A stretch of DNA of 18,834 nucleotides from a virus, in the IMG/VR virus record IMGVR_UViG_3300045988_036394; one strand, given 5' to 3'. The notes under the pieces are model-generated. The model searched no databases. It saw only the letters and a program-made list of their open reading frames with translations, and had not been told where the DNA came from. The position numbers and the translations under genes were made by a program. This document shows, one piece after another, positions 1-18,834 of the stretch; within the stretch, counting starts at the first letter, position 1, and every line of letters begins with the position of its first letter.

Positions 1-42
1 CTGCGCATGTCTCGTGGGCTCGGAGATGTGTATAAGAGACAG
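1..42. other. Illumina Nextera (Tn5) library adapter, not biological sequence
   Basis: Bases 9-42 read GTCTCGTGGGCTCGGAGATGTGTATAAGAGACAG, the Nextera read-2 adapter ending in the 19-nt Tn5 mosaic end. Bases 1-8 (CTGCGCAT) sit where the i7 index lies in the PCR primer. Confidence 0.95.
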
Positions 43-210
43 GGTGTGGGGTTGTGTGAAGATTTTCCCTTGTGGTTTTTTTTATTTGTGTATTATTTTT
101 TTTTGTTCTGTGTCACCGTTGACGCTTTGTTTTATTCCAGTCTCTATTATATTTTTTTTATACTAACCTGTTAAGTTTTTTTTATTTTGGGCGTGTCGTT
201 CGTTTGTTTG

Positions 211-219
211 TGTTATATT
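211..219 (+). promoter_or_regulatory. Candidate extended -10 promoter box (TGTTATATT) for the ITR gene
   Basis: A TGnTATATT box lies about 33 nt upstream of ATG 252, with the SD AAGGGAAAGGAAA in between. I see no good -35. The same TGnTATAAT-like box type recurs in the other main intergenic regions. Confidence 0.35.
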
Positions 220-251
220 GTAGTTATCCGCTTCAAGGGAAAGGAAATAAA

Positions 252-452
252 ATGATTAACAACAGCATCGTCAAGGATTACGCCGGGGGCTGTATTCTGA
301 ACAGTGACCAGCAGCTCGATGATTTCGATATTGATGCGATTGTTGAGAATCTGCGTCATGTGGCTTTGGTCAATGATGTGGCTATTGATGGATATGATGA
401 TTGTGATTCGTTTCCGGCTGATGATTTTATGGAAGCGTTCGAGGAAGCGTGA
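252..452 (+). CDS. ITR-encoded 66-aa highly acidic protein (left copy), function unknown
   Basis: ATG 252 is preceded by the SD AAGGGAAAGGAAA. The TTG at 204 used in the track lacks an SD. Product is MINNSIVKDY...DDFMEAFEEA with 13 D and 4 E against 1 K and 1 R. A bidirectional terminator follows. Confidence 0.7.
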   Translation: MINNSIVKDYAGGCILNSDQQLDDFDIDAIVENLRHVALVNDVAIDGYDDCDSFPADDFMEAFEEA

Positions 453-463
453 GAGATAAAGTT

Positions 464-494
464 AAAAGCCCTAGGCTAACAGCCTAGGGCTTTT
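464..494. terminator. Bidirectional rho-independent terminator
   Basis: AAAAGCCCTAGGCT-AAC-AGCCTAGGGCTTTT forms an 11-bp stem flanked by an A-run and a T-run. It lies between the convergent ITR gene (+) and the endolysin gene (-). Confidence 0.8.
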
Positions 495-500
495 ACTTTA

Positions 501-1166
501 TCATACGAGGTATTGTGTCGTACCGTTCACGGGCTTTAGTGCGACATATCGGGTTTTGCCTGATCTGCCTACGTAGTGTGCCCAAATGTAGCCGTCTTCG
601 ATTGTGGTGCCGCTCATGAGGTTGACTGTCTGCCCTTTGCGGTATTGTGCCACGACTGCACTGTGGATACTGGGTGCCGAGCGTACGTTGAGCACTGACA
701 CGTTGACGCGATAGGTGCGTGCGGCGATTGTGACGGTGTTGGTGTTACCGTTGCTATTGTTGTTGTTTCGGGGGTGAAAGTAGCCTATGATGCCGTTTTT
801 GCTGATATTAAGGTATCCGGTTTTATTAGGATTTTGTGATATGGTGGTGAGCGTGCCGTTGCCGTTGTCTTTGATAACGATAGCGACGTGGTTCATTCCG
901 CTGCGTTTCCAAAACGCCACGTCGCCGTACACGGGCGTATAGTTGGCTGACTCTTTGGTGAAAGTATTTTGCAGTGCGCGGGAGCGGTCATAACGTGCAG
1001 TGTAGACGCTTGCCGCATATCCGTCTACCGTGTTAGTGTCGGCGGCTGGAATACCGTACACGTTACGCGCGTAGGAACTCCACAAGTCCCAGCACTGACC
1101 ACCATACGCGCCGTCCATGTCAATGGTTTTGCCGTTGACTGAGTTAATCCACTCTTGGATATTCAT
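501..1166 (-). CDS. Endolysin: N-terminal CHAP peptidase plus C-terminal SH3b cell-wall-binding domain
   Basis: CHAP signature DMDGAYGGQCWDLW ... GDVAFW ... NHVAIV ... SQNPN. An N-rich linker follows, then an SH3b-like YRVNVSVLNVRSAPS...GYIWAHY. SD AAAGGAG upstream. It is the last gene of the lysis cassette. Confidence 0.9.
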   Translation of the reverse strand: MNIQEWINSVNGKTIDMDGAYGGQCWDLWSSYARNVYGIPAADTNTVDGYAASVYTARYDRSRALQNTFTKESANYTPVYGDVAFWKRSGMNHVAIVIKDNGNGTLTTISQNPNKTGYLNISKNGIIGYFHPRNNNNSNGNTNTVTIAARTYRVNVSVLNVRSAPSIHSAVVAQYRKGQTVNLMSGTTIEDGYIWAHYVGRSGKTRYVALKPVNGTTQYLV

Positions 1167-6916: not shown

Positions 6917-7729
6917 CTAGTGACCGAGATTGTAGGCGAGACTCGTGCTATAAAGCTGCGGGACGTTGATCATGTTGTCGCCACTGCCCCACATACCTAA
7001 AAATAGGGTCTCAAGCGAGTTAATGACCATTATGTCGATGTTTAGCATGGTGTTACGCCAATCCTGCAAGAGCTGTGATTGCGAACCGCTGGTACCGAGC
7101 GTGTGCGACATGCTGTTGCCTTTATCAGAGGAATGCGAAAAATCGGTGTTGCTGGTACTGGACGCGGTGGCGGTACTGTCCTGCTGTGTGCTCGTATGCG
7201 TGTTGCCCGTCGAGTCCGTTTGGCTTGCGGTTGTGGCGTACTTGCGGAAGTCATCGATGCGAGTTTGCGGAAACTCCGAATTAAACGTCATGCTGGAATT
7301 GTCGGCGGTGGTGTCGGACGTGCTGTTGGCGCTGGACTCGTTCGACTGTGTGCCGCTTGATTTTCCGCTGGACTCATTCGTGCTGGTCGAGTCCATTTCA
7401 TGCCGGACATCGGACGTGATAAACGGGTCGAACTTGCGCTGTGCCGACAAATAGAGCTGGTTGAAATAGTCCATCTGCTCTCGCATGGTACGGCCTAGAT
7501 AAAACACGAACATTTGCGGCGTTTCGCTGCCGATTTCGCGCAATGCGTAGTGTGCCACGATTTTTTCGTTGAGCTTTGCGCGGTATGATTCATCAAAAAT
7601 CGGATAATATTGCGAGCTTAAATGCAGTTTTTCGTCCGTATTAAAACCGCGCGCAATCAGATTACCAAGGGTCAACGTATAATCCGCCATACTGTCCTTG
7701 ACAGCGTATATGCTCAAGTCCTGTACCAT
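6917..7729 (-). CDS. Lower collar protein (phi29 gp11-like)
   Basis: The N-terminal block YPIFDESYRAKLNEKIVAHYALREIGSETPQMFVFYLGRTMREQMDYFNQLY is the pattern I associate with picovirus lower collar proteins. A long S/T-rich region follows. The start overlaps the connector stop (TAATG). Confidence 0.7.
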   Translation of the reverse strand: MVQDLSIYAVKDSMADYTLTLGNLIARGFNTDEKLHLSSQYYPIFDESYRAKLNEKIVAHYALREIGSETPQMFVFYLGRTMREQMDYFNQLYLSAQRKFDPFITSDVRHEMDSTSTNESSGKSSGTQSNESSANSTSDTTADNSSMTFNSEFPQTRIDDFRKYATTASQTDSTGNTHTSTQQDSTATASSTSNTDFSHSSDKGNSMSHTLGTSGSQSQLLQDWRNTMLNIDIMVINSLETLFLGMWGSGDNMINVPQLYSTSLAYNLGH

Positions 7730-8670
7730 TAGTTTTCTTCCTCCTTGTTTCCGTCAACGTCCAGCAAACCGCCAGAAGTGGTGTCGTTCCATTCGATGCT
7801 TATTGGTTTGCCTAAGTCTGCCATTTGCGGCCACAGTCGGTTAATCGTGTCGCACGCCTGTTGACGCGCCTTAAGATAGCTTAGACGGAAAACGTTGGTG
7901 CGGCTGTTTCCCGCAGTGACTTCCGATTCGAGCAGACGTTCTTTCTTTTCGGTCGTACTGTTGTCGATACCGAGATAGTTTACAAGCTCGTTCCAGATTT
8001 GCGTTTTCGTCGTAATGATTTTGTCCGCCATAAAGGGCGTCATGTTTGGAAAGGTTTGAAACATTCCAGTAATATCCGCGCTGTCATACGCGTAGATATA
8101 GGGGTCTCCGTCTTCTCGTGCCTTAATAAGATTCTGCGCGGTGAGTTTATTGGTTTCGGACGTGGCGATAATCAAAGGCACGCTGATATTGTCGAGGTTC
8201 ACGTCCAGCGCGCGGTCAGCAATCGCCAATCGTGTCGCGTAATTCCACATGACATCAATCATGGTGCAACGCAATTGGTTATCCCAAATAGGCACGCATT
8301 TCTTGCTTCCGATTTGGGGATGCGAGTAGTTCGTGGCAACCGGTTGGAATGATGTCGGATTATTGTAGTTGTTGACTCCGCCGATATTTCCAGAGGTGAC
8401 CATAAAACGGCGGACGCCCTTGCGTTCGTCGGGAAAGAAGAGTGCAAGACCGTTTTCAAACAAGGTCAGTTCCAAATAGCGTTCATCAATATACGGGGGC
8501 AAATTAATCCATCTGAAACGTGACACTGCCAACATTTCAATCAATTTCATGTACTGGTTGATTCGTAGGCTTTGCCGCATTTCAGGCAGATTAAGATTGC
8601 CCCACATGGAGCCGAGCACGCTTTGGTTATCCCAGTGCGCCGCCTTCTTTGCGTTATTACGTTTACCCAT
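7729..8670 (-). CDS. Head-tail connector / portal (phi29 gp10-like upper collar protein)
   Basis: 313 aa against 309 aa in phi29 gp10. By-eye matching blocks are FRWINLPPYIDERYLE (phi29 FEWENLPPTINPSFLE), WNELVNYLGIDNSTTEKKERLLESEV ([26 protein letters not shown]) and RQQACDTINRL (REEACEKINEL). Confidence 0.9.
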   Translation of the reverse strand: MGKRNNAKKAAHWDNQSVLGSMWGNLNLPEMRQSLRINQYMKLIEMLAVSRFRWINLPPYIDERYLELTLFENGLALFFPDERKGVRRFMVTSGNIGGVNNYNNPTSFQPVATNYSHPQIGSKKCVPIWDNQLRCTMIDVMWNYATRLAIADRALDVNLDNISVPLIIATSETNKLTAQNLIKAREDGDPYIYAYDSADITGMFQTFPNMTPFMADKIITTKTQIWNELVNYLGIDNSTTEKKERLLESEVTAGNSRTNVFRLSYLKARQQACDTINRLWPQMADLGKPISIEWNDTTSGGLLDVDGNKEEEN

Positions 8671-8728: not shown

Positions 8729-10957
8729 TCAGTACGCGATACCACTCAGCGGCACGTTGTCCGCATAATCGGTGACGCCAATCTTATTGGGGTCAGTCCA
8801 TACCGTCACGCCCGACTCAAAAATACCCTTGATAGTCAAGCGGTATTCTTCAGGACACGTCGAGCTGCGCACGTACAGTTCGTGCAATTTCCAGTACGTG
8901 AAATTGGACATTGCCATCAAATTTGTCGGAAGTTGCATGAAACGTTGTACATAGTAACCGTATCTTAACCACACTTCACCAATGGAGTGCATGGCGGCCG
9001 GTGGTATCTGCCGAAAGCGTACCATGACACCAACAAGCCCGTTCGCCAGATTGAAAGCGTCGCCACCTAATGCGCCAGACGTGGTAGGGGGTATGGTCTG
9101 AGTCTGTTGCACCTGTGCGTTGATACCGGCGATAGTGTTCTCGTAATCGCCTTGCGCCGTCGCCTGTGCAAGTTGCTTGTTCATATCCGCGAACTGCATG
9201 GTCTGCTGGTTGGACAAATTAGTCTGTGCGAGACTGTAGGCGTTGGCCTGCGAAGTCGATGCGTTGTTGGTGGTCTGCGTGTTCGCAAGCTGCTGATTAG
9301 CTGTGCTCACGTTGTTATCATAGGTCATCTGGTTTGTCCATGCGCCGATTGCGGTGCCTGCGATAGCTCCGGCCACACCGCCGATATTGCCTGTGACAGC
9401 GGAACCAACGGCGTTCGCCACGCCACTGCCGATAGTGTTGAGCTGTGACATTTGATTGTTGAAGCCGAGGTTTTTCAGCGTTAAATCGGTGCCCATTTGC
9501 GCGCTTTGGTTGCTAATGGCGTTCATGGCGTTACGATTGGACGTGCCAAGTCGGTTTTGGGCACTTGCGTACTGCGTGCCTAATTGTGCCTGAGCGTAGG
9601 CGTTGTTGATGCCCATTTGGGTTTTCTGAAAACTCCAATCCGCGCTCTGCTGTGCGTATTGGCGCGTGTACGCGGAATTGGCGAGGGCGAGAGCGCTGCC
9701 GCTGTTAACCGTCATGAAAGTCGGGAAATTGGTGATGCCGAATGATGCGTTGAGCATTTCGCCTGGATCAATCGGCAAACCGGAATTATTTGGCAATGGC
9801 GATTGTTCGCTGGCATCACTTGCGTTATATCCGCGCGGATAAAAATTGAGTCGCGGAGAAGGTGGCGCATAGTCCCACGACTCCCGAATAGTCAGGTCAG
9901 CACTTGGGATCTGCTCAGGGTTGTAAGTGATTACAGTTCCGTTAAGGCAGGAACATTCCAATACCGCGTATGGTGCCGTGCGGAATTTTTGCAGATACTT
10001 GTAGCGTTCTGGAAGTTTGAAATTGTCGCGGAAGTCCTTGATATGAATGATGTCGGCGTAGCGGCTTTTAGCGTCATTATGTCGAACCTCCAAGCGGTAG
10101 CAGTCGCCGCGCCAATCAATCATGTGATTAAAAAACGCTCCCGGCTTCTTCTGATTTTTCAACAACGCTTCCGGAAGCTGAGGAATGGCGTATATGCCGC
10201 AAATACCCTGCGTCACCCACGGATATTCAGCGCCCGCGCCCATGACGGCGAGGAAGTCCAAGGAGTCCGAGAAATAGTATAGGGCGGTGCCGTTTGTATG
10301 GTTTTCAAAAACGCTGCCGTCCGCGCACGTGGTTTTCGGTGCGGTTGCCGTGCCTGGGTCAGTGTCCAGTTTGGTGGTCGATACCACGATCACGCCGAAG
10401 GTGGTGTACCCGTTAGTTTCGCCAATCAGACTCTTGTATTGCTGCTCAGTGACCACCATTGCTTTACCGGTATCCAATCCTTCTGGCAGGTCGAGATAGG
10501 TGCGGCCATAATCTTTCCAAGCATTTTCGTTCGCCACGCCGACGTGCCCCCTTTCCACATACGCGTTGCCGAGCTGGATGTCGTGCTGGAAACTCTGCCA
10601 CACGTCCAGTTGGATATTGAGTTGCGTGGTGTTGGCGTTGATATAGTCGCACGTCTGGATGAAATAATACCACGAACGGGGGGTATCAAAATCGTAGTCG
10701 TTCGTCGCAACAAGGTAGTTGTATTGCGACGCTTGTGCGAACGGCACCGGCAGCCGTACCGGAAGGCCATATTTCGCCATCGTGCAGTTCGTGAACTCGA
10801 TGCCATCCAAACCGTCGAAATACTCTTTTTGGGCGGTTTCGTCCCATTCGACAATATCCCTGTAACCCATGTCCCAAGGCACATTACAGAGTTTGAATCG
10901 TGTGTTCGGCGTCCATTTCGCGTAACTAAAATTAATTGGCAAATCGCTTGCACTCAT
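8729..10957 (-). CDS. Tail knob / distal tail tube protein (phi29 gp9-like)
   Basis: The N-terminal region aligns by eye with gp9 (SWYYFIQTCDYINANTTQLNIQLDVWQSFQHDIQLGNAYVERGHV against [46 protein letters not shown]). It has a long Q/N/A/S/T-rich region with an embedded G/A/V/I hydrophobic stretch. SD AGGAGG. Confidence 0.85.
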   Translation of the reverse strand: MSASDLPINFSYAKWTPNTRFKLCNVPWDMGYRDIVEWDETAQKEYFDGLDGIEFTNCTMAKYGLPVRLPVPFAQASQYNYLVATNDYDFDTPRSWYYFIQTCDYINANTTQLNIQLDVWQSFQHDIQLGNAYVERGHVGVANENAWKDYGRTYLDLPEGLDTGKAMVVTEQQYKSLIGETNGYTTFGVIVVSTTKLDTDPGTATAPKTTCADGSVFENHTNGTALYYFSDSLDFLAVMGAGAEYPWVTQGICGIYAIPQLPEALLKNQKKPGAFFNHMIDWRGDCYRLEVRHNDAKSRYADIIHIKDFRDNFKLPERYKYLQKFRTAPYAVLECSCLNGTVITYNPEQIPSADLTIRESWDYAPPSPRLNFYPRGYNASDASEQSPLPNNSGLPIDPGEMLNASFGITNFPTFMTVNSGSALALANSAYTRQYAQQSADWSFQKTQMGINNAYAQAQLGTQYASAQNRLGTSNRNAMNAISNQSAQMGTDLTLKNLGFNNQMSQLNTIGSGVANAVGSAVTGNIGGVAGAIAGTAIGAWTNQMTYDNNVSTANQQLANTQTTNNASTSQANAYSLAQTNLSNQQTMQFADMNKQLAQATAQGDYENTIAGINAQVQQTQTIPPTTSGALGGDAFNLANGLVGVMVRFRQIPPAAMHSIGEVWLRYGYYVQRFMQLPTNLMAMSNFTYWKLHELYVRSSTCPEEYRLTIKGIFESGVTVWTDPNKIGVTDYADNVPLSGIAY

Positions 10958-11030: not shown

Positions 11031-12746
11031 TCAGGCGGAAACAGTGACTTCTGCCGTTCCAGCAGCTCCCGCGAACTTCACGGAGACATTGGCAGTGCCC
11101 GCCGCAGTTCCAGTAAGCACACCGTTAGGGGTGATGGTCGCGTGGGCGTCCACAGTCCACAGTGCGAGGTTGGTCACGTCCGCGGTGTTGCCGTCCGTCT
11201 TGGTGGCGATCGCCTTAAGCGCTACATGCTCCTTGACTTTGACCGACTTTTCGCCCTGAATCTCAATGGACTCGATGGCTCCGGCTTTCCAACCGCCCAT
11301 CCATGCGCCAACCACCGGCACGGACAACGCGGCGGAAACCGTCTGATCAATCTCAGGCGTGGCCGGATTGATATAGGTTGCCTGAGCGGTGACCTTAAGC
11401 GTTTCGGCGGTTTCGTCAAGGCCACAACGCAAAATACCGTCGTTGTCGATAGTCGTAAACTGCGAGGTTGCGCCCTCGACGGCATACTTAATACCTGTCG
11501 GCTGGAACGTAGCCGTCTCCTCATTGACGCTGGAAATAGTGGAAACCACCTGCACCAAGTCACCACGCGACACGTTTTCCGGAGTGATGGCGTCCTGTCC
11601 GTACTTCCTCACGCGCAGCTCGAACTTAGGCGTAGAAGTGGTGAGAGTATCCGGCAGAGTCACAGACTTGGCGGAGCCTTCACCTGTCCAAAACAGTATC
11701 GCGTTCGCAAACGGGTTAGGAGTAATACTGCCCCTGTGCTTAAAGAAGATATTTCGCGTTCCGTCAATCGGGTTAACGGGGGAGTTGGTGGTCTCCAACA
11801 TTTCGTCCCAGCAGAAGAAGAAGTCTTCCGTGGTCAGAACCGCCTGCACCTTACCAGCCGCACCACCGATACCAAACATGTCTTCCGGAATCGGGATAAT
11901 CCGGTACGGGACATTGACTTTATCGATATTGAACGCGGCGGCGAGGGCTTCGACGTTGAGTGCAGCAATTACCTGCGGAGTGGCGAAGAGAATGGCTTCC
12001 GAATCACGCCACGGAGTCACCCAAGACATTGCGTTATATCGTGGCATGGCACTCATTGGCGACGCCTTCAATTCGTTCGCCACTTGCTGAATGAGACGAA
12101 GCAGATTCTTGGCGTCGGCTTCGGTGGAGTCAGGTGCGCCGACGTCCTTGGTATGGACTCGGTAGAAACCGCCCTTGCGCGCGTATTCCGCGAAGGTCTG
12201 TGTCTTCATCAAGTACATGTCGTTTCTATCCGAGAGGATAGGCGCGTTCATGATTTCAGCGATATAATCCGACATGCCCGATTCACCGTCGAACGCAGTC
12301 AGGAGCGCGTCCTCCGGAATGGTGACGGGGTAATAGTGGTCAAAAGTCAGGGGGTGGAACACCGAAGCAGTCGGAAGCGAGTAACGCCCGTACACATCAT
12401 CGCCCAAGTACTCTTTGTTGAAATTGCGGGTACGCGCCTTGACGAGACCCACGGCGGCCTGTTCGTAAGTGGAACCGTAGCGCTTGAGAGTGCGCGGCGA
12501 ACCAATGAGTTTCAGCGGGTCATCCCAGTCCGCGTGCTGGACATAAAGGCCAATCAGTCGCTGAATCAATACCCCTGTGAACTCGTCACGCAGATAGGGG
12601 AAATTGCGCATGGTATCCACCGCGTTGCGGATATTGCCCTGCGTTGCGCTCGGGATACGGGTCTGGAACTGCGGTGAAGTGGCGGAACGCACGGCGTTGA
12701 ATATCTCAACGTCACCCTTGCCTGCCAGTGGTCGAATATTAGACAT
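11031..12746 (-). CDS. Major capsid protein (phi29 gp8-like) with C-terminal Ig-like (Big_2-type) domains
   Basis: The N-terminal blocks NAVRSATSPQFQTRIPSATQGN....FTGVLIQRLIG.......DPLK resemble phi29 gp8 [22 protein letters not shown]...FITSLVDRIG....NPLK. The C-terminal 80 aa (IESIEIQGEKSVKVKEHVALKAIATKTDGNTADVT...GTANVSVKFAGAAGTAEVTVSA) is a typical Big_2 repeat. SD AGGAGGTAA. Confidence 0.9.
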   Translation of the reverse strand: MSNIRPLAGKGDVEIFNAVRSATSPQFQTRIPSATQGNIRNAVDTMRNFPYLRDEFTGVLIQRLIGLYVQHADWDDPLKLIGSPRTLKRYGSTYEQAAVGLVKARTRNFNKEYLGDDVYGRYSLPTASVFHPLTFDHYYPVTIPEDALLTAFDGESGMSDYIAEIMNAPILSDRNDMYLMKTQTFAEYARKGGFYRVHTKDVGAPDSTEADAKNLLRLIQQVANELKASPMSAMPRYNAMSWVTPWRDSEAILFATPQVIAALNVEALAAAFNIDKVNVPYRIIPIPEDMFGIGGAAGKVQAVLTTEDFFFCWDEMLETTNSPVNPIDGTRNIFFKHRGSITPNPFANAILFWTGEGSAKSVTLPDTLTTSTPKFELRVRKYGQDAITPENVSRGDLVQVVSTISSVNEETATFQPTGIKYAVEGATSQFTTIDNDGILRCGLDETAETLKVTAQATYINPATPEIDQTVSAALSVPVVGAWMGGWKAGAIESIEIQGEKSVKVKEHVALKAIATKTDGNTADVTNLALWTVDAHATITPNGVLTGTAAGTANVSVKFAGAAGTAEVTVSA

Positions 12747-12766: not shown

Positions 12767-13048
12767 TTAGTCAAACAAGTCTTCGATGGACTCTTGCGTC
12801 TCGTCGTTGTCGCCGTCGTTGCCGGACGGTGCGGGATCGTTGTAGCCGAGCGTGTCCAGCATGGCTTTCAATGCGGCCAATTCCTTTTCGAGTGCGTCAA
12901 GTCGTGCGGAAACGTCCGGCTCCTGCTTCTGTTCCGGCTCCGGCTCCTCTTTCGGCTTAACCTCGTCATCTACGGTTTGCGTCTGCTGTTCCTCTTCGGT
13001 CGGCGGCGGAGTAGTGATTTCCTCACCTTCACCGTTTGGGTCTGCCAT
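12767..13048 (-). CDS. Scaffolding protein (phi29 gp7-like)
   Basis: A 93-aa very acidic protein with a coiled-coil segment (ARLDALEKELAALKAMLDTL). The C-terminal ETQESIEDLFD resembles the gp7 C-terminus ETITIEDLEAK. It lies immediately upstream of the capsid gene. SD AAGGAG. Confidence 0.7.
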   Translation of the reverse strand: MADPNGEGEEITTPPPTEEEQQTQTVDDEVKPKEEPEPEQKQEPDVSARLDALEKELAALKAMLDTLGYNDPAPSGNDGDNDETQESIEDLFD

Positions 13049-13278: not shown

Positions 13279-13287
13279 ATTATAGCA
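13279..13287 (-). promoter_or_regulatory. Consensus extended -10 box TGCTATAAT overlapping the polymerase stop codon
   Basis: Minus strand reads ...CATGCTATAATGATTGAG. The TAA stop is inside TATAAT. The predicted start is about G13272. No -35 is visible. Confidence 0.45.
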
Positions 13288-14731
13288 TGACCATTGTGCC
13301 GTAATCATCCATGACTTGCGTTCCATGTCTAAACCTCTCGTACGGGATTGGCTGGGAAAACATGTTTCCGGCCATGCAGACATCCACTTCACCGTCATCT
13401 CGCCACCCCTCATAACGGTTCATTCCAAGGATGGTCAGTTTTTCGTATCGTGCGGCAATCTTCCATTTGCCAAGTTCGGTTGGATGTATGTCACATGATT
13501 CCACCGGCTCCCAACCGCTCAGAATGCAACCATCCGTGTTCGCGTACAAGACTCGGTCAGAGTTGGCGTGGCATACGTCCATAAGCTTGCGGCGGGCGTA
13601 AGCATTGACCCAAACCGGAACAGGCAAATAGTCGGTTTTTAGATTCGATTCTTCACGTTGCGTGACATTCCAGTCGAGAGTGATGCCGTCTTTGGATAAA
13701 GGGAGCATGACGGCGCCTTTTGGGAGACTCGCCATTTTACCTACAAGCGCGTTCATAATAAGTTTCGCCATCTGCCGTTTCTCGCCAGTTGACTTCTGTT
13801 TCAGCCCCCCCCATTCATCGACAAACGAACGGAAGAAGCCTTTGGAGCGCCTGAACTTCCACCCCCTTACATGCCGGTAGACGCTCACGTCATAGTTTTC
13901 GTTGAGCAATTGTTGGTCAATGTCAGTGAGCACGCGCGTGACGTAACCACGTGTCGAGGCAAAGCGGTTGAGTCCGTACACGCTGCGGTTGTCTAACAAA
14001 ATGGGGTATCCGTCTGGTTTAAGTTCCGCGCGAAACGTAAGTTCATCGCAATGCAATGGCATGTCATTATCCTGCTTGTATTTGCCGTCGTATGGTTCCG
14101 GTTCACCCCACGGCAACCACTCGTCACGCAGAATACTGGGATACATGCTATTGCAATCAACGTCGATAGCCTTGCCATAAAATCCTTCTCTGGTCAGCAT
14201 GAAACCGCCGATATAGGCGTCATGCAATGACTTTTTGGTATCCGACTCAAGTTGTGGAAATTTGTCGTAATACCATTTCCACTCGCCGGACGCGAAAGCT
14301 TCCATGCTTGCACCTCCTGCGGTGATTTTACATAATCCACGGTTGCCGTATTCTCTCAGGATGTTGAGCATTTGGGTATCGGTCATGGTGAGACGGCAGT
14401 TCTCCCGTAAAAGATTTGATATGTCGAAAAAACGTGCGGAATTTTCTCGGTCAATACGCACGCTAAAACTGAAAAACTTGCCCTTTTTCGAGACAATCGC
14501 ATCCCAACTTAAGTTAGAGTTGTGTTCGTTATGTGGGAGGGAGTGTACGACGTGAGCCATAAACGGTTCAAGCAATTCTGGATTAGTCACGTAGACGGTG
14601 AGTTTGCCGCCTGACATGATGGACGCCAAAAGGCGATTTGGCGCGGTGACGTCACGCAGGACGGTTCCGTCCGTACAGCGTATGACGTTATCCGCGCACC
14701 ACAATCCTATCCTTTTGTCTTGCGTAGTCAT
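13280..14731 (-). CDS. Family-B protein-primed DNA polymerase (phi29 gp2-like), compact 483-aa form
   Basis: Motif A is IDVDCNSMYPS, motif B is KLIMNALVGKM and motif C is LYANTDGC. GLCKITAGGASMEAF matches phi29 GLDRMTAGSDSLKGF, and C-terminal LGKWKIA and VCMAGN match LGYWAHE and KCAGM. I prefer the start at M21 of the track ORF (ATG 14731, SD AAAGGA), which removes the overlap with the upstream gene. Confidence 0.93.
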   Translation of the reverse strand: MTTQDKRIGLWCADNVIRCTDGTVLRDVTAPNRLLASIMSGGKLTVYVTNPELLEPFMAHVVHSLPHNEHNSNLSWDAIVSKKGKFFSFSVRIDRENSARFFDISNLLRENCRLTMTDTQMLNILREYGNRGLCKITAGGASMEAFASGEWKWYYDKFPQLESDTKKSLHDAYIGGFMLTREGFYGKAIDVDCNSMYPSILRDEWLPWGEPEPYDGKYKQDNDMPLHCDELTFRAELKPDGYPILLDNRSVYGLNRFASTRGYVTRVLTDIDQQLLNENYDVSVYRHVRGWKFRRSKGFFRSFVDEWGGLKQKSTGEKRQMAKLIMNALVGKMASLPKGAVMLPLSKDGITLDWNVTQREESNLKTDYLPVPVWVNAYARRKLMDVCHANSDRVLYANTDGCILSGWEPVESCDIHPTELGKWKIAARYEKLTILGMNRYEGWRDDGEVDVCMAGNMFSQPIPYERFRHGTQVMDDYGTMVML

Positions 14732-14757
14732 GGTATAATTCCTTTGCTTACCGTCCG

Positions 14758-15819
14758 CTATTTTTCCAGTGCGCCCGCTTCCGTCATCCACCTATCGAAC
14801 TGCTGCCTTGAGCGCTGATAGCCCTTGCTATTGTCGCGGAATATCGACGTGAAACCGTGCCGAACTGGGTCATACACTGTCCAGTCGAACACGATACGGG
14901 GGGCGTCCGTCTGTTCGATGAACGCGCGTTTTTGCGCTGCCGATAGGCCACGGAATCGTTTCAAGCGTTTTGAGCCGAGCGTGGTAGCCAAGATTTTCTC
15001 AAAAACCTCATAGCGTCCGCGCGACATGTAAGATGGCCATTTATGTTCTTCATACAAGTCTTTGCCCTGTTTGCCTGTTCCCCGCTTTTTGGACGGTTTG
15101 CGTTTCTGCTCGGTACGCAGCCCCAGTATTTCTGCTACGTCGTGCATCTGCTCACGCAATTCATTGCGATGGCCGCTTTCCAGTTGAGAGCGCACGAAAG
15201 CTTCATCACTCAGAACGTTCGTCATTTGCAAAAAATCAGTGAGTTTTGACGGGATTATCTGGTTACGCCCAAACCCCTCGCCGGTGGTTCCGGTGATTTC
15301 AGCCACTCGCTGCTCATACACGCTACGTTGCGGCATTGCCTGATATCTGTTCCATTCGTTGATTTTCCGTCGTGCCGCATTGATTTTCCGCTGCTGCTGC
15401 CTGAGCAGTTTACGTCGTTTCACCACCGGCTCCGCGCTGATCTGTGCGTCCGAGATGGGCGCACGCTGGGCAAACATGTAATCTTTCTTCGTCGGCTTCT
15501 CAGCAGCGGCGGCATGGTATGGTGTTGCTTTCGCGTCCGCTATGGCCTGTTTCTTTTGCCGTTCCCACTCCTTGCCTAACGTTTTCGCGATATTAACTAG
15601 TTGTTTGTCTGCGGTTTTGGCGAGATTCGAGTGAGAGTACGAGCCAAGCTGCGTAACATTACGCGCGGCACGTGCTTGCGCGGCCTGTATCTTCTTAATG
15701 TGCTTGCGTTGCTGTCTATCGGCTTTGATGGCAACGCTGCTAATGTCCGGCTTTTGGTGGGTGCGATAATTCTGTGACACGACTGCGCGGGGTGCTGGTT
15801 TCTTCCTCTTCCCTGACAT
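14758..15819 (-). CDS. Putative terminal protein (replication primer)
   Basis: It lies immediately upstream of the polymerase gene, as phi29 gene 3 does. The 353-aa product is very basic, with N-terminal MSGKRKKPAPR and further K/R clusters. I could not align it to phi29 TP by eye. The start is taken at ATG 15819 (SD AAAGGA), because the longer track start lies inside a hairpin. Confidence 0.55.
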   Translation of the reverse strand: MSGKRKKPAPRAVVSQNYRTHQKPDISSVAIKADRQQRKHIKKIQAAQARAARNVTQLGSYSHSNLAKTADKQLVNIAKTLGKEWERQKKQAIADAKATPYHAAAAEKPTKKDYMFAQRAPISDAQISAEPVVKRRKLLRQQQRKINAARRKINEWNRYQAMPQRSVYEQRVAEITGTTGEGFGRNQIIPSKLTDFLQMTNVLSDEAFVRSQLESGHRNELREQMHDVAEILGLRTEQKRKPSKKRGTGKQGKDLYEEHKWPSYMSRGRYEVFEKILATTLGSKRLKRFRGLSAAQKRAFIEQTDAPRIVFDWTVYDPVRHGFTSIFRDNSKGYQRSRQQFDRWMTEAGALEK

Positions 15820-15841
15820 GGTTGCAGTCCTTTCAGATAGA

Positions 15842-15866
15842 GAGAGCACCCAATAGGGGTGCTCTC
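15842..15866 (-). promoter_or_regulatory. 10-bp stem-loop between the SSB and terminal-protein genes (possible attenuator or mRNA stabiliser)
   Basis: GAGAGCACCC-AATAG-GGGTGCTCTC. On the minus strand it is followed by UCUAUCU, a weak U-tract, and then the SD of the TP gene. Confidence 0.4.
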
Positions 15867-15900: not shown

Positions 15901-16347
15901 TCACTTGTTGTTCTTCTGCGGTTCCTGATCCACCGGCTCGATGCTGAAAAACTTGAAGCCACGGCGGGAACGGCGTTCCACCACCTTGATACACAGCGGT
16001 TCCGTCCAAGTGTTCGGCGTGCCGAAGATGCCGAACATAGTATTGAGTCCTGCGGCGAGGGTCGGGGAGGTGGCCGCGTACGCCTTGTTGTCATCGGTCA
16101 CAATAATTACGCGCACGGTATTGGAGATTTCTCCGGTCTGGTCATCGGTCACTTGCACGGCCTGAGCGACGGCGTTCGTCATATTCAGCGGTTCGTTGAG
16201 GTGTTCGTCGAGCTTTTCGGCGTTCTGCAATGCGCTGTAGAGCTTGATTTTGCCTTCGCGGGTCGAGGTGTCGATGAAGTGCTGGACGGTGCCAAGTTCA
16301 GTGTTTTCGGTGTTGAAAGCGATGAGTGCGGTATTGTTGTTTTCCAT
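15901..16347 (-). CDS. Single-stranded DNA-binding protein (phi29 p5-like)
   Basis: By-eye blocks against phi29 p5 are MENNN (MENTN), EGKIKLYSA (EGQIKIFNA), NAVAQAVQVTD (NAIAQYKQVSD), TVRVIIVTDDNKAYAATS (TVTTIFAADGSLYSAIS) and CIKVVERRSRRGFKFFSIE (FKVKVVQGTSSKGNVFFSLQ). It occupies the gene-5 slot between the p6-like and TP genes. Confidence 0.7.
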   Translation of the reverse strand: MENNNTALIAFNTENTELGTVQHFIDTSTREGKIKLYSALQNAEKLDEHLNEPLNMTNAVAQAVQVTDDQTGEISNTVRVIIVTDDNKAYAATSPTLAAGLNTMFGIFGTPNTWTEPLCIKVVERRSRRGFKFFSIEPVDQEPQKNNK

Positions 16348-18135: not shown

Positions 18136-18369
18136 TCAATACACCACACTATAAAAATAAGCCATATATTCACCCCCAACGACACGCCTTGGCGGGAACT
18201 GGCTAACATGAGCGTAAAGCATGACTCCCTTCAAGCAGAGGACCCTACGCAAAGCCTCATAAGAGTCTTTGGCGTGAACCACACGATAACTACGAGTCGG
18301 AGTTTCCACTTGGAGATAGTCAACACAAGACCAATCAACTACGATATACGTATGCTCTCTCACAATCAT
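18136..18369 (-). CDS. Hypothetical early protein (77 aa), first gene outside the right ITR
   Basis: This is internal M55 of the 131-aa track ORF. The SD AGGAAGGGAGA lies directly upstream. The longer form would overlap the ITR gene out of frame. Confidence 0.55.
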   Translation of the reverse strand: MIVREHTYIVVDWSCVDYLQVETPTRSYRVVHAKDSYEALRRVLCLKGVMLYAHVSQFPPRRVVGGEYMAYFYSVVY

Positions 18370-18382
18370 TCTCCCTTCCTGC

Positions 18383-18583
18383 TCACGCTTCCTCGAACGC
18401 TTCCATAAAATCATCAGCCGGAAACGAATCACAATCATCATATCCATCAATAGCCACATCATTGACCAAAGCCACATGACGCAGATTCTCAACAATCGCA
18501 TCAATATCGAAATCATCGAGCTGCTGGTCACTGTTCAGAATACAGCCCCCGGCGTAATCCTTGACGATGCTGTTGTTAATCAT
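18383..18583 (-). CDS. ITR-encoded 66-aa highly acidic protein (right copy), first gene of the early operon
   Basis: Identical to 252-452(+). Here no terminator follows it, and the next gene starts 13 nt downstream. Confidence 0.7.
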   Translation of the reverse strand: MINNSIVKDYAGGCILNSDQQLDDFDIDAIVENLRHVALVNDVAIDGYDDCDSFPADDFMEAFEEA

Positions 18584-18615
18584 TTTATTTCCTTTCCCTT
18601 GAAGCGGATAACTAC

Positions 18616-18624
18616 AATATAACA
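18616..18624 (-). promoter_or_regulatory. Mirror copy of the ITR extended -10 box, likely the early promoter of the right-end operon
   Basis: Reverse complement of 211-219. It sits upstream of the first gene of the long minus-strand early operon. Confidence 0.35.
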
Positions 18625-18792
18625 CAAACAAACGAACGACACGCCCAAAATAAAAAAAACTTAACAGGTTAGTATAAAAAAAATATAATAGAGACTGGAA
18701 TAAAACAAAGCGTCAACGGTGACACAGAACAAAAAAAAATAATACACAAATAAAAAAAACCACAAGGGAAAATCTTCACACAACCCCACACC

Positions 18793-18834
18793 CTGTCTCT
18801 TATACACATCTCCGAGCCCACGAGACATGCGCAG
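18793..18834. other. Illumina Nextera (Tn5) library adapter (reverse complement of 1-42)
   Basis: CTGTCTCTTATACACATCTCCGAGCCCACGAGAC followed by ATGCGCAG. This is the exact reverse complement of bases 1-42. Confidence 0.95.

What the first reader, a model, noticed from the sequence alone, without database searches (positions are those of the whole stretch)
18383..18583. Duplicated, terminus-proximal gene for a 66-aa hyper-acidic protein: candidate DNA mimic or anti-defence factor
The product MINNSIVKDYAGGCILNSDQQLDDFDIDAIVENLRHVALVNDVAIDGYDDCDSFPADDFMEAFEEA has 17 acidic and 2 basic residues by my count. Small, very acidic, first-expressed phage proteins are often DNA mimics or enzyme inhibitors. 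Examples are the phi29 p56 UDG inhibitor, T7 Ocr and the ArdA class.

Placing the gene in both ITRs doubles its dosage and makes it promoter-proximal at both ends. That fits a product needed before anything else. I see no sequence similarity to p56 or Ocr, so the function is inference only.
Basis: inference. Interest (0 to 1): 0.65.

Follow-up and report, generated by a model that had tools for sequence, protein, structure and literature searches.

The report
Swappable acidic early gene at phage ends
A real, conserved gene for a tiny, very acidic protein sits just behind a promoter built into both end-repeats of a phi29-like Bifidobacterium phage. It is one of several unrelated acidic proteins that related phages swap in and out of that position, which suggests a host-neutralising accessory factor, but its function is untested.

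Summary
The ORFs at 252-452(+) and 18383-18583(-) encode the same 66-aa protein (13 D + 4 E against 1 K + 1 R, pI about 4.05). Both lie inside a perfect 453-nt terminal inverted repeat. The outer 42 nt of each end are Illumina Nextera adapter, not phage DNA.

The window is a near-complete phi29-like, protein-primed podophage. Its closest cultured relatives are Bifidobacterium phages BP1 and BD811P1-3.

The gene is real:
- 144 homologues were found.
- Median dN/dS is 0.13.
- It has a strong ribosome-binding site.
- AlphaFold2 gives a confident four-helix model (pLDDT 90).

It matches no Pfam, PHROG, PADLOC or PDB entry and no known fold, including Ocr, ArdA, p56 and Ugi.

The main new result concerns the end-repeats of this phage group. 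They carry a conserved inward promoter and ribosome-binding site, and the repeat normally stops at the ATG of a variable first gene. At least five unrelated small acidic proteins occupy that slot. The 66-aa protein occurs at the early end, the late end, or both. Both ends carry the same family in only 3 of 26 typed genomes. It also occurs in three phi29-like lineages whose polymerases are only about 35% identical.

This fits a mobile, immediate-early, host-neutralising accessory protein. DNA mimicry is plausible but unshown.

The parts
1..42 (.). Illumina Nextera adapter plus 8-nt index. This is a sequencing artefact, not phage DNA.
   Evidence: The adapter string CTGTCTCTTATACACATCTCCGAGCCCACGAGAC was found at both ends in inverted orientation. 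Its identity as the Nextera adapter and index rests on my own knowledge.
18793..18834 (.). Illumina Nextera adapter plus index, the mirror of 1-42.
43..453 (+). Left (late-gene end) inverted terminal repeat, phage part.
   Evidence: It is 100% complementary to 18382-18792. Terminal repeats of 85-522 nt, often imperfect, occur in 58 related contigs.
18382..18792 (-). Right (early-gene end) inverted terminal repeat, phage part.
211..219 (+). Inward extended -10 promoter element (TGTTATATT) of the left repeat. Its mirror is at 18616-18624 on the minus strand.
   Evidence: It is conserved as TGnTATAGT, TGGTATGAT or TGGTATTAT at the same distance from the ATG in groups A, B and C, and in BP1 and BD811P2. 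Its function as a promoter is inferred.
235..245 (+). Ribosome-binding site AAGGGAAAGGA, ending 6 nt before the ATG. Its mirror is at 18590-18600 on the minus strand.
   Evidence: Conserved in every related end aligned.
252..452 (+). Left copy of the 66-aa acidic protein gene (family F3). It converges on the endolysin gene.
463..495 (.). A 15-bp hairpin with T tracts on both strands. It is a bidirectional terminator between the left F3 copy and the endolysin gene (501-1166, minus strand).
   Evidence: a similar hairpin lies in BP1 at the same place.
18383..18583 (-). Right copy of the 66-aa acidic protein gene (the finding). It is the first gene of the long minus-strand transcription unit.
18136..18369 (-). 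The next early gene (77 aa, pI 8.6), with its own ribosome-binding site 14 nt after the F3 stop codon. It lies outside the repeat and is probably co-transcribed with the right F3 copy.
   Evidence: Sequence read. A homologue follows F3 in contig 053117 (L012, 74% identity). pI.
189..198 (+). Conserved GGGCGTGTCG box upstream of the inward promoter. Its mirror is at 18637-18646. Its role is unknown.
   Evidence: Conserved across groups A, B and C, and present in 1-3 copies in relatives.
146..174 (-). Outward-facing sigma-70-type promoter (TTAACA-17-TATAAT) inside the repeat. Its mirror is at 18661-18689 on the plus strand.
   Evidence: It is a 12/12 consensus match in 32 related ends. Where the contig end is most complete, it lies about 105-110 nt from that end.

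Best explanation
The 66-aa protein (called F3 here) is an optional gene cassette that recurs across diverged phage lineages. It sits in the first-gene slot behind a host-type promoter and ribosome-binding site built into the terminal repeats of a group of phi29-like Bifidobacterium phages.

The promoter lies in both repeats, so whichever genome end enters the cell first can be transcribed at once by host RNA polymerase. At the late end, the slot gene is the only thing that promoter can express, because a terminator and convergent late genes follow it.

In the window's lineage the same cassette occupies both slots. The repeat therefore runs through the whole gene, most likely because one end was copied onto the other (recombination or panhandle-type repair; inferred).

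The product is a compact four-helix protein whose acidic positions are mostly conserved. I think it most likely works stoichiometrically. It would bind and block a basic, nucleic-acid-binding host protein, such as a restriction enzyme or other defence or repair enzyme. In that case it acts as a charge decoy or DNA-mimic-like inhibitor.

Shown here: gene reality, purifying selection, the promoter and slot architecture, the optional and polymorphic distribution, spread across lineages, and the lack of any known homologue. Inferred only: immediate-early timing, the target, and inhibition by mimicry.
For: Phage type. The window encodes a protein-primed PolB, a Phi29-type capsid protein, a connector, the gp16 packaging ATPase and a Phi29-type SSB. 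Its closest relatives are Bifidobacterium phages BP1 (PolB 85%) and BD811P1-3.

The gene is real and constrained.
- It has 144 homologues.
- Median dN/dS is 0.13.
- Mean pLDDT is 89.9 with four helices.
- 13 of the 16 acidic positions in the family consensus are at least 90% conserved.

Slot architecture.
- The extended -10 element, ribosome-binding site and ATG are conserved in groups A, B and C, and in BP1 and BD811P2.
- The repeat ends at the start codon in BP1 and 5 nt into the ORF in BD811P2, after which the two ends carry different genes.
- In group A contigs the repeat boundary falls 2-6 nt past the slot gene's ATG.

Polymorphism.
- The slot holds families F1, F2, F3, F5 and F6, with pI from 4.05 to about 5.
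- hhalign finds no homology among them.
- None hits Pfam or PHROG. F1, F2 and F6 also give no meaningful PDB sequence match.
- F3 occurs at the early end only, the late end only, or both. Both ends carry the same family in 3 of 26 genomes.
- BP1 lacks F3.

Spread across lineages.
- F3 is 65-83% identical across lineages whose PolB is about 35% identical and whose ATPase is 47% or 29% identical.
- A-B gene identities (median 0.83) equal A-A identities (median 0.84), and nearest neighbours cross group lines.
- In group C the cassette carries its own copy of the promoter module and a terminator.

The family is confined to phages.
- Only 20 clusters at 50% identity were found among 1.84 billion proteins.
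- None was found in 185,579 species genomes.
Against: - There are no expression or binding data.
- The predicted fold matches no known DNA mimic or inhibitor (Foldseek best E = 4 against PDB and 1.2 against BFVD).
- High acidity is not specific. The putative scaffold protein at 12767-13048 also has pI 4.05.
- The slot could hold proteins needed for the phage's own entry or replication rather than counter-defence.
- The inward promoter has no clear -35 element and was not picked up by the consensus scan.
- No association with a particular tail or receptor-binding variant was seen, so nothing points to a particular host defence.
Confidence: 0.45

Rival explanations
1. F3 and the other slot proteins are functional analogues of the phi29 right-end early operon products (p17, p16.7). 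On this view they are phage-own helpers, made from the first-entering end, that complete genome internalisation or organise early replication. They would not be counter-defence factors.
For: The positional analogy is good. The late-end slot is an inward-facing early gene next to the packaging ATPase and lysis genes and converges on them. Phi29 genes 17 and 16.x, driven from promoter C2, are arranged the same way (my own knowledge). Every late end that could be typed carries some slot gene.
Against: - The occupants are mutually unrelated and combine freely. That is unusual for a core mechanical function.
- F3 is absent from many close relatives.
- No similarity to any phi29 protein family was found.
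- A protein with net charge of about -15 is unlikely to bind DNA directly.
Confidence: 0.15
2. F3 is specifically a uracil-DNA glycosylase inhibitor. It would be a functional analogue of phi29 p56, protecting the single-stranded replication intermediates of protein-primed replication.
For: p56 is a small (56 aa), acidic, early, DNA-mimicking protein of phi29-like phages (PMC4974454, read). F3 is similar in size, charge and phage type.
Against: - The profile search of all PDB sequences found nothing, and Foldseek gave no significant match. That p56-UDG complexes are in the PDB is my own knowledge.
- F3 is predicted all-helical, whereas p56 is a beta-sheet-plus-helix dimer (my own knowledge).
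- F3 is optional within the clade, whereas the replication mode that motivates a UDG inhibitor is universal.
Confidence: 0.08
3. F3 regulates or chaperones a basic phage protein, such as the pI 10.5 putative terminal protein or the SSB. Alternatively, it mediates competition between co-infecting phi29-like phages. In neither case would it target the host.
For: - The phage encodes a very basic 363-aa protein just upstream of PolB (14758-15849, pI 10.46). That would be a natural partner for a hyper-acidic protein.
- Three phi29-like lineages share F3 and the promoter region. This suggests shared hosts and co-infection.
Against: F3 is equally conserved in lineages whose replication proteins are only about 35% identical, so co-evolution with a phage partner is unlikely. 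It is also dispensable in close relatives that have near-identical replication genes.
Confidence: 0.12
4. The duplication in the window is an assembly artefact, for example a fold-back chimera or a repeat copied onto the other end by the assembler. On this view the phage carries one copy.
For: The two copies are 100% identical over 411 nt, and both ends finish in the same adapter. Many public contigs of this group have k-mer-length (119-nt) terminal repeats that reflect assembler behaviour.
Against: - Independent assemblies carry F3 at both ends, some with a mismatch between the two copies (L010/L011, L015/L016, L038/L039).
- Both inner junctions of the window are seen separately elsewhere: F3 followed by the 77-aa gene in L012, and F3 followed by a hairpin and the endolysin in L001, L014 and L019.
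- Protein-primed phages are expected to have terminal repeats.
Confidence: 0.03

Closest known systems
Phi29 p56 (uracil-DNA glycosylase inhibitor, DNA mimic)
   Same: It is a small, acidic, early protein of a protein-primed phi29-like phage and acts by binding a host DNA enzyme (PMC4974454).
   Different: F3 shows no similarity to it in sequence or predicted fold. F3 is predicted all-alpha. F3 sits in a polymorphic slot behind a terminal-repeat promoter and is optional, and its target is unknown.
T7 Ocr (gp0.3) and ArdA anti-restriction DNA mimics
   Same: Like Ocr, F3 is hyper-acidic and helical. It is also the first gene behind strong host-type promoters on DNA that may enter first. The logic is to express the inhibitor before the rest of the genome is exposed (my own knowledge of Ocr).
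   Different: F3 gives no Pfam hit to any family, which covers Ocr and ArdA (that Pfam has models for both is my own knowledge). It has no structural match. At 66 aa it is about half the size of Ocr, and its oligomeric state is unknown.
Phi29 right-end early operon (promoter C2; genes 17 and 16.x)
   Same: It is an inward-facing early transcription unit at the end next to the packaging ATPase and lysis genes, converging on the late genes. In phi29 this end is ejected first (my own knowledge).
   Different: The products are unrelated. In the Bifidobacterium phages the promoter lies inside a long terminal repeat and so is present at both ends, and the gene behind it is interchangeable.
Genes within the terminal repeats of poxviruses and rudiviruses (for example SIRV2)
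   Same: Whole accessory genes lie in the terminal inverted repeats, so they are present in two copies. The repeat boundaries shift between strains (my own knowledge).
   Different: The scale differs (0.4 kb against 1-10 kb), as do the virus realm and the way the ends are replicated. I found no report of a terminal repeat containing a gene in phi29-like phages, but only four literature queries were run.
BD811P2 gp1 (WAX06311.1) and the 'hypothetical protein' entries of Caudoviricetes metagenome-assembled genomes
   Same: BD811P2 gp1 is a true homologue. It clusters with F3 by BLASTP and sits first behind the same promoter at the early end of a cultured Bifidobacterium dentium phage. The metagenomic entries are 67-83% identical to F3.
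   Different: All are annotated only as hypothetical. BD811P2 carries a single copy, and a different acidic protein (gp21, family F6) occupies its other end.

Membership tests
phi29-like protein-primed podophage (genomic context) | A protein-primed family-B DNA polymerase together with the phi29-type capsid protein, connector, gp16 packaging ATPase and SSB | tested here: met
   PF03175, PF25622, PF05352, PF05894 and PF17427 all score above their curated cut-offs. PHROG hits agree.
phi29-like protein-primed podophage (genomic context) | A linear genome with inverted terminal repeats | tested here: met
   The window has a 411-nt phage repeat. Related contigs have 85-522-nt repeats, many of them imperfect.
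phi29-like protein-primed podophage (genomic context) | A packaging RNA (pRNA) | tested here: not met
   Rfam gave no hit at E <= 1. The RNA downstream of the outward repeat promoter is unstructured (z = 0.04). The Rfam pRNA model probably covers only Bacillus phages (my own knowledge), so absence is not proven.
Ocr (T7 gp0.3) family | Sequence match to the Pfam Ocr model, or a fold match to the Ocr structure | tested here: not met
   The Pfam scan gave 0 families at E <= 0.1. Foldseek against PDB gave a best E of 4 with unrelated proteins.
ArdA anti-restriction family | Sequence match to the Pfam ArdA model, or a fold match | tested here: not met
p56 / Ugi / SAUGI uracil-DNA glycosylase inhibitors | Sequence or fold similarity to a solved inhibitor structure | tested here: not met
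   The profile search of all PDB sequences gave 0 hits at E <= 10. Foldseek against PDB gave no such match. The model is all-helical.
DNA-mimic proteins (a functional class, not a homology family) | High density of conserved acidic residues and low pI | tested here: met
   17 of 66 residues are acidic and pI is 4.05. 13 of the 16 acidic positions in the family consensus are at least 90% conserved.
DNA-mimic proteins (a functional class, not a homology family) | Surface carboxylates arrayed with the spacing of DNA phosphates | not testable with these tools
   The structure tool returns no coordinates (one search confirmed that no model file is available).
DNA-mimic proteins (a functional class, not a homology family) | Binds the DNA-binding site of a target protein and competes with DNA | not testable with these tools
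   This needs biochemistry.
Phage anti-defence accessory genes (functional class) | Optional and patchy among close relatives, sited in a variable hot-spot, and exchanged across lineages | tested here: met
Phage anti-defence accessory genes (functional class) | Homology to a catalogued defence-related protein | tested here: not met
   In PADLOC-DB the only hit was at E = 0.046 (10.7 bits), which is noise. PADLOC models defence systems, not counter-defence proteins. No dedicated anti-defence library was available.
Phage anti-defence accessory genes (functional class) | Expression restores phage growth on a host that carries the defence | not testable with these tools
   This needs an experiment.

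The most novel reading that the evidence does not exclude
The terminal repeats of these Bifidobacterium phi29-like phages act as a two-ended expression platform: an origin, then a promoter and ribosome-binding site, then a plug-in slot. Its interchangeable occupants (F1, F2, F3, F5, F6) would be a set of unrelated, previously undescribed inhibitors of host defence or DNA-metabolism proteins. F3 would be a DNA mimic with a new four-helix fold. Spreading the repeat over a cassette would be a simple way to guarantee that cassette's expression whichever end enters first.
Probability: 0.3. Interest if true: 0.7.

Novelty: new variant of a known kind. Interest (0 to 1): 0.5.

Why it matters
Lytic Bifidobacterium phages have only recently been cultured (BD811P1-3 and BP1; PMC12694917). 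I know of no characterised counter-defence proteins for this genus, which is central to the infant and adult gut.

This analysis provides a defined locus and a short list of five small protein families that are natural candidates. At least two of them are present in cultured phages (BD811P2 gp1 and gp21, BP1 gp1), so they can be tested.

It also shows how a terminal repeat in a protein-primed phage can carry regulatory signals and grow to take in a whole gene. This matters for annotating such genomes and judging their completeness. It may also matter for engineering phi29-type linear replicons, because the slot is a natural insertion site with its own promoter.

Tried and rejected
- Known-family membership. 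Pfam, PHROGs and PADLOC scans of F3 gave nothing usable. A profile search of all PDB sequences gave 0 hits. Foldseek against PDB and BFVD gave no hit better than E = 1.
- Remote homology. A profile search of 1.84 billion representative proteins found only 20 clusters, all obvious family members or frameshifted fragments.
- Other databases. tblastn of F3 against GenBank phages returned nothing, perhaps because of low-complexity masking. BD811P2 gp1 was recognised as a homologue only by direct comparison. The first IMG/VR scan with the single sequence failed, but the alignment-based scan worked. The scan of 185,579 species genomes found nothing.
- A common origin for the slot proteins. hhalign probabilities were below 5% for every pair. 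The shared C-terminal '(E/D)D(M/F)xEAF' look of F2 and F3 is not significant.
- Other slot families against Pfam and PHROG, and F1, F2 and F6 against PDB sequences. These gave nothing except a short, probably spurious match of F2 to the protein A B-domain.
- A link between the cassette and the tail or receptor-binding protein variant. None was seen.
- The outward repeat promoter as the driver of a pRNA. Rejected, because the RNA is unstructured and Rfam is silent.
- Literature. Nothing was found on this protein or on terminal-repeat genes in Bifidobacterium phages.
- Considered from the sequence alone and dropped. These were a beta-clamp-binding motif at QQLDDF and mimicry of the SSB C-terminal tail by DSFPxDDF. 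The residues are partly buried or variable, and no test was available.

Full report
**1. Observation**

The minus-strand ORF at 18383-18583 and the plus-strand ORF at 252-452 both translate to the same sequence: MINNSIVKDYAGGCILNSDQQLDDFDIDAIVENLRHVALVNDVAIDGYDDCDSFPADDFMEAFEEA. It has 13 Asp, 4 Glu, 1 Lys, 1 Arg and 1 His, with pI 4.05 and net charge about -15.

Both ORFs lie in a perfect inverted repeat, 1-453 and 18382-18834, which stops one base after the stop codon.

One correction is needed. The outermost 42 nt at each end are the Illumina Nextera adapter CTGTCTCTTATACACATCTCCGAGCCCACGAGAC plus an 8-nt index (the identity of the adapter is from my own knowledge). Phage sequence therefore starts at 43 and ends at 18792. 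Comparison with relatives shows that a few true terminal bases are missing.

**2. What the window is**

Almost all large ORFs are on the minus strand. They include:
- a protein-primed family-B DNA polymerase (13280-14791);
- a Phi29-type SSB (15901-16347);
- a Phi29-type major capsid protein (11031-12746);
- a tail knob protein (8729-10957);
- a connector (7729-8670) and a lower collar protein (6917-7729);
- the gp16 packaging ATPase (1730-2797);
- two CHAP-domain lysins.

A 363-aa protein with pI 10.5 lies just upstream of the polymerase (14758-15849). By position it is the likely terminal protein (inferred).

The closest cultured relatives are Bifidobacterium phage BP1 (PolB 85% identical) and BD811P1-3 (73-75%). 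The window is therefore a near-complete genome of a phi29-like phage of gut Bifidobacterium, and terminal inverted repeats are expected.

**3. The gene is real**

- A search of 5.8 billion proteins found 144 homologues. Nearly all are 66 aa and 67-83% identical, and they lie on contigs of 16-19 kb.
- Across 26 gene sequences the median pairwise dN/dS is 0.13. Variable sites number 56 at third codon positions, against 33 and 26 at first and second positions. The conservation therefore acts on the protein, not merely on DNA of the replication origin.
- AlphaFold2 with a 34-sequence alignment gives a confident compact model (pLDDT 89.9, pTM 0.73) with helices at 4-17, 27-40, 48-53 and 56-65.
- The hydrophobic core positions are conserved. 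So are 13 of the 16 acidic positions in the family consensus, at 90% or more. The most invariant stretch is Y-x-D-C-D-S-F-P-x-D-D-F-x-E-A-F-E.

**4. It belongs to no known family**

- Pfam, PHROGs and PADLOC gave nothing.
- A profile search of every PDB sequence gave nothing even at E <= 10.
- Foldseek against PDB and BFVD gave nothing better than E = 1.
- A profile search of 1.84 billion representative proteins found only 20 clusters.
- A scan of one genome from each of 185,579 bacterial and archaeal species found none.

The family is thus narrow and confined to phages. Membership of the Ocr, ArdA, p56 or Ugi families was tested and not met.

**5. Terminal-repeat architecture in relatives**

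An IMG/VR scan found 37 loci in which the gene always lies within 700 nt of a contig end and points inward. Eight contigs have it at both ends, some with a mismatch between the copies. The two-copy state is therefore real in nature.

Aligning the upstream regions shows a conserved module just before the ATG:
- a GGGCGTGTCG box;
- an extended -10 element (TGnTATAGT, TGGTATGAT or TGGTATTAT; window 211-219);
- about 15 nt of leader;
- the ribosome-binding site AAGGGAAGG (window 235-245).

The same module is present in the cultured phages, but there the repeat stops at the gene start. In BP1 the 148-nt repeat ends exactly before the ATGs of gp1 (81 aa) and gp26 (91 aa). In BD811P2 the 55-nt repeat ends 5 nt into the ORFs of gp1 (61 aa) and gp21 (105 aa).

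**6. The slot is polymorphic**

I fetched the late ends (through the ATPase gene) and the early ends (through the SSB gene) of up to 80 close relatives each.
- 58 contigs have both ends. Their repeats are 85-522 nt and often only 92-99% identical. A run of exactly 119-nt repeats reflects assembler k-mer truncation.
- The inner boundary of the repeat falls 2-6 nt after the ATG of the first gene.

Typing that first gene gave these families:

| Family | Size | pI | Note |
|---|---|---|---|
| F1 | 83-87 aa | 4.2-5.1 | |
| F2 | typically 80-81 aa | 4.1-4.2 | BP1 gp1 type |
| F3 | 61-66 aa | 4.05 | this finding; includes BD811P2 gp1 |
| F5 | 76 aa | 4.2-4.9 | |
| F6 | 105-124 aa | 4.05 | BD811P2 gp21 type |

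A few singletons were also found. F4 (about 77 aa, not acidic) is simply the next conserved early gene, seen first when no cassette precedes it.

The families are unrelated to each other (hhalign probability below 5%). None hits Pfam or PHROG, and F1, F2 and F6 gave no meaningful PDB sequence match.

F3 shows three placements:
- early end only (contig 053117);
- late end only (contigs 002598, 002631, 010496, 016630);
- both ends (the window, 028413, 032762).

Only 3 of 26 genomes typed at both ends have the same family at both ends. The window carries no other slot family. Cassette type does not track the variant of the tail or receptor-binding protein.

**7. Spread across lineages**

F3 occurs in three phi29-like lineages:

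| Group | Core proteins against the window | Other features |
|---|---|---|
| A (window-like) | PolB 85-88%, ATPase 93-96% | |
| B | PolB 35-36%, ATPase 47%, SSB 52% | |
| C | ATPase 29% | 16-kb genomes, different gene order, still phi29-type ATPase, capsid and connector |

F3 itself stays 65-76% identical at the protein level across these groups. Its nucleotide identity between groups A and B (median 0.83, maximum 0.90) is no lower than within group A (median 0.84), and nearest neighbours cross group lines.

The outermost repeat sequence is specific to each group, whereas the promoter-proximal part is shared.

In group C the cassette carries its own promoter copy: a 141-nt direct repeat at L029 121-261 and 687-827. 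It also has its own terminator and is stacked outside the native promoter. In contig 032762 a second promoter copy follows F3 and drives an F2 gene.

F3 therefore behaves as a mobile unit of promoter, gene and sometimes terminator.

**8. How it most likely works**

Shown:
- It is a real, folded protein under purifying selection, with its acidic positions conserved.
- It is encoded by an optional cassette that recurs across lineages.
- It sits directly behind a conserved promoter-like element and a strong ribosome-binding site within the terminal repeat.
- At the late end (252-452) it is followed by a 15-bp bidirectional terminator hairpin (463-495) and converges on the endolysin gene. That promoter can therefore express only this gene.
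- At the early end it is followed after 14 nt by the next gene (18136-18369), so it is the first cistron of the early operon.

Inferred:
- Host RNA polymerase fires this promoter as soon as an end enters the cell.
- By synteny with phi29, the late end may enter first. In phi29 the end next to gene 16 is ejected first and carries the inward promoter C2 (my own knowledge).
- A promoter in both repeats makes expression independent of entry polarity.
- Where the same cassette fills both slots, homology extends and the repeat grows by 200 nt. The likely cause is recombination between ends or panhandle repair, as known for adenovirus-type replication (my own knowledge).

The properties of the product and its polymorphic, mobile, first-expressed context best fit a stoichiometric inhibitor. 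It would occupy the basic, nucleic-acid-binding surface of a host defence or repair protein. I put the general host-neutralising role at about 0.45, and strict DNA mimicry at about 0.2 (a subset of that).

**9. Rivals**

| Rival | Confidence | Main objection |
|---|---|---|
| A p17/p16.7-like helper for entry or replication | 0.15 | The occupants are unrelated and freely combined. |
| A p56-like UDG inhibitor | 0.08 | No fold or sequence similarity, and the gene is optional although the replication mode is universal. p56 properties are from PMC4974454. |
| A partner of a basic phage protein, or a factor in competition between phages | 0.12 | Equal conservation in lineages with very different replication proteins argues against a phage partner. 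|
| An assembly artefact | 0.03 | Independent two-copy assemblies exist, and both junctions are seen elsewhere. |

**10. Novelty and value**

The family is annotated only as 'hypothetical protein'. I found no paper that discusses it or the repeat-slot design.

Small acidic early inhibitors and variable early-gene hot-spots are known kinds. Genes inside terminal repeats are known in poxviruses and rudiviruses (my own knowledge). I found no earlier description of a phi29-type terminal repeat that carries a promoter and ribosome-binding site with a plug-in slot and can take in the whole gene. I therefore rate this a new variant of a known kind.

Interest is moderate (0.5). The locus gives a concrete set of testable candidate counter-defence proteins for Bifidobacterium phages, but no function is demonstrated.

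Noticed in passing
window 1-42 and 18793-18834: Both contig ends are Illumina Nextera transposase adapter plus an 8-nt index (ATGCGCAG), in inverted orientation. This is untrimmed read-through, not phage sequence. Any analysis of terminal sequence or repeat length should start at 43 and end at 18792.
   Followed up: yes
window 146-174 (-) and 18661-18689 (+): A near-consensus sigma-70 promoter (TTAACA-17-TATAAT) inside each repeat points outward, toward the genome end. In 32 related ends it is a perfect 12/12 TTGACA-N17-TATAAT. Where the contig end is most complete, it lies about 105-110 nt from that end. The roughly 100-nt run-off RNA it would make is A-rich and unstructured (z = 0.04), so it is not pRNA-like. 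Its role is unexplained; origin activation or a small RNA are possibilities.
   Followed up: partly
whole window: Rfam gives no hit to the phi29 packaging RNA or to any other family at a meaningful score, although the phage has the gp16 ATPase and connector that use a pRNA in phi29. Any pRNA here is unrecognisable to the existing model.
   Followed up: partly
window 189-198 and 18637-18646; L021 99-144 and 447-473: A conserved GGGCGTGTCG box lies about 15 nt upstream of the inward extended -10 element. Relatives have one to three copies, and it is shared by lineages A, B and C. It could be a regulator-binding site.
   Followed up: no
L043 (GenBank PQ571273, Bifidobacterium phage BP1) 1-379: The first 300-380 nt or so of the BP1 record duplicate the 3' part of gp1. 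They lie outside the true terminal repeat (380-527 and 19316-19463), so the deposited left end looks misassembled.
   Followed up: partly
GenBank PQ571295 (Klebsiella phage KA1-2) nt 4-211: The end of this Klebsiella phage record, which has a neighbouring accession number to BP1, matches the Bifidobacterium-phage terminal repeat at 79% identity. It is probably a cross-sample chimera or contamination.
   Followed up: no
window 12767-13048 (-): This 93-aa protein has 29 acidic and 6 basic residues (pI 4.05) and lies directly upstream of the major capsid gene. By position it is the likely scaffold protein. It shows that extreme acidity in this genome is not specific to DNA mimics.
   Followed up: no
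window 14758-15849 (-): This 363-aa protein is very basic (pI 10.5), has no family hit, and lies immediately upstream of PolB. By synteny with phi29 gene 3 it is the likely terminal protein.
   Followed up: no
L029 121-261 and 687-827 (IMG/VR contig 3300045988_082458): In the 16-kb group C phage the whole 141-nt promoter module is directly repeated (97% identity). The 66-aa gene and a terminator lie between the two copies, and the repeat at the other end stops exactly where the second copy begins. This looks like a record of how the cassette was inserted.
   Followed up: partly
L074, L076, L089, L093, L094, L098 and others (IMG/VR contigs): Many public contigs of this phage group have terminal inverted repeats of exactly 119 nt at 100% identity. 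This most likely reflects the assembler's k-mer length cutting a longer repeat short. Completeness calls based on repeat length would understate the true ends.
   Followed up: no
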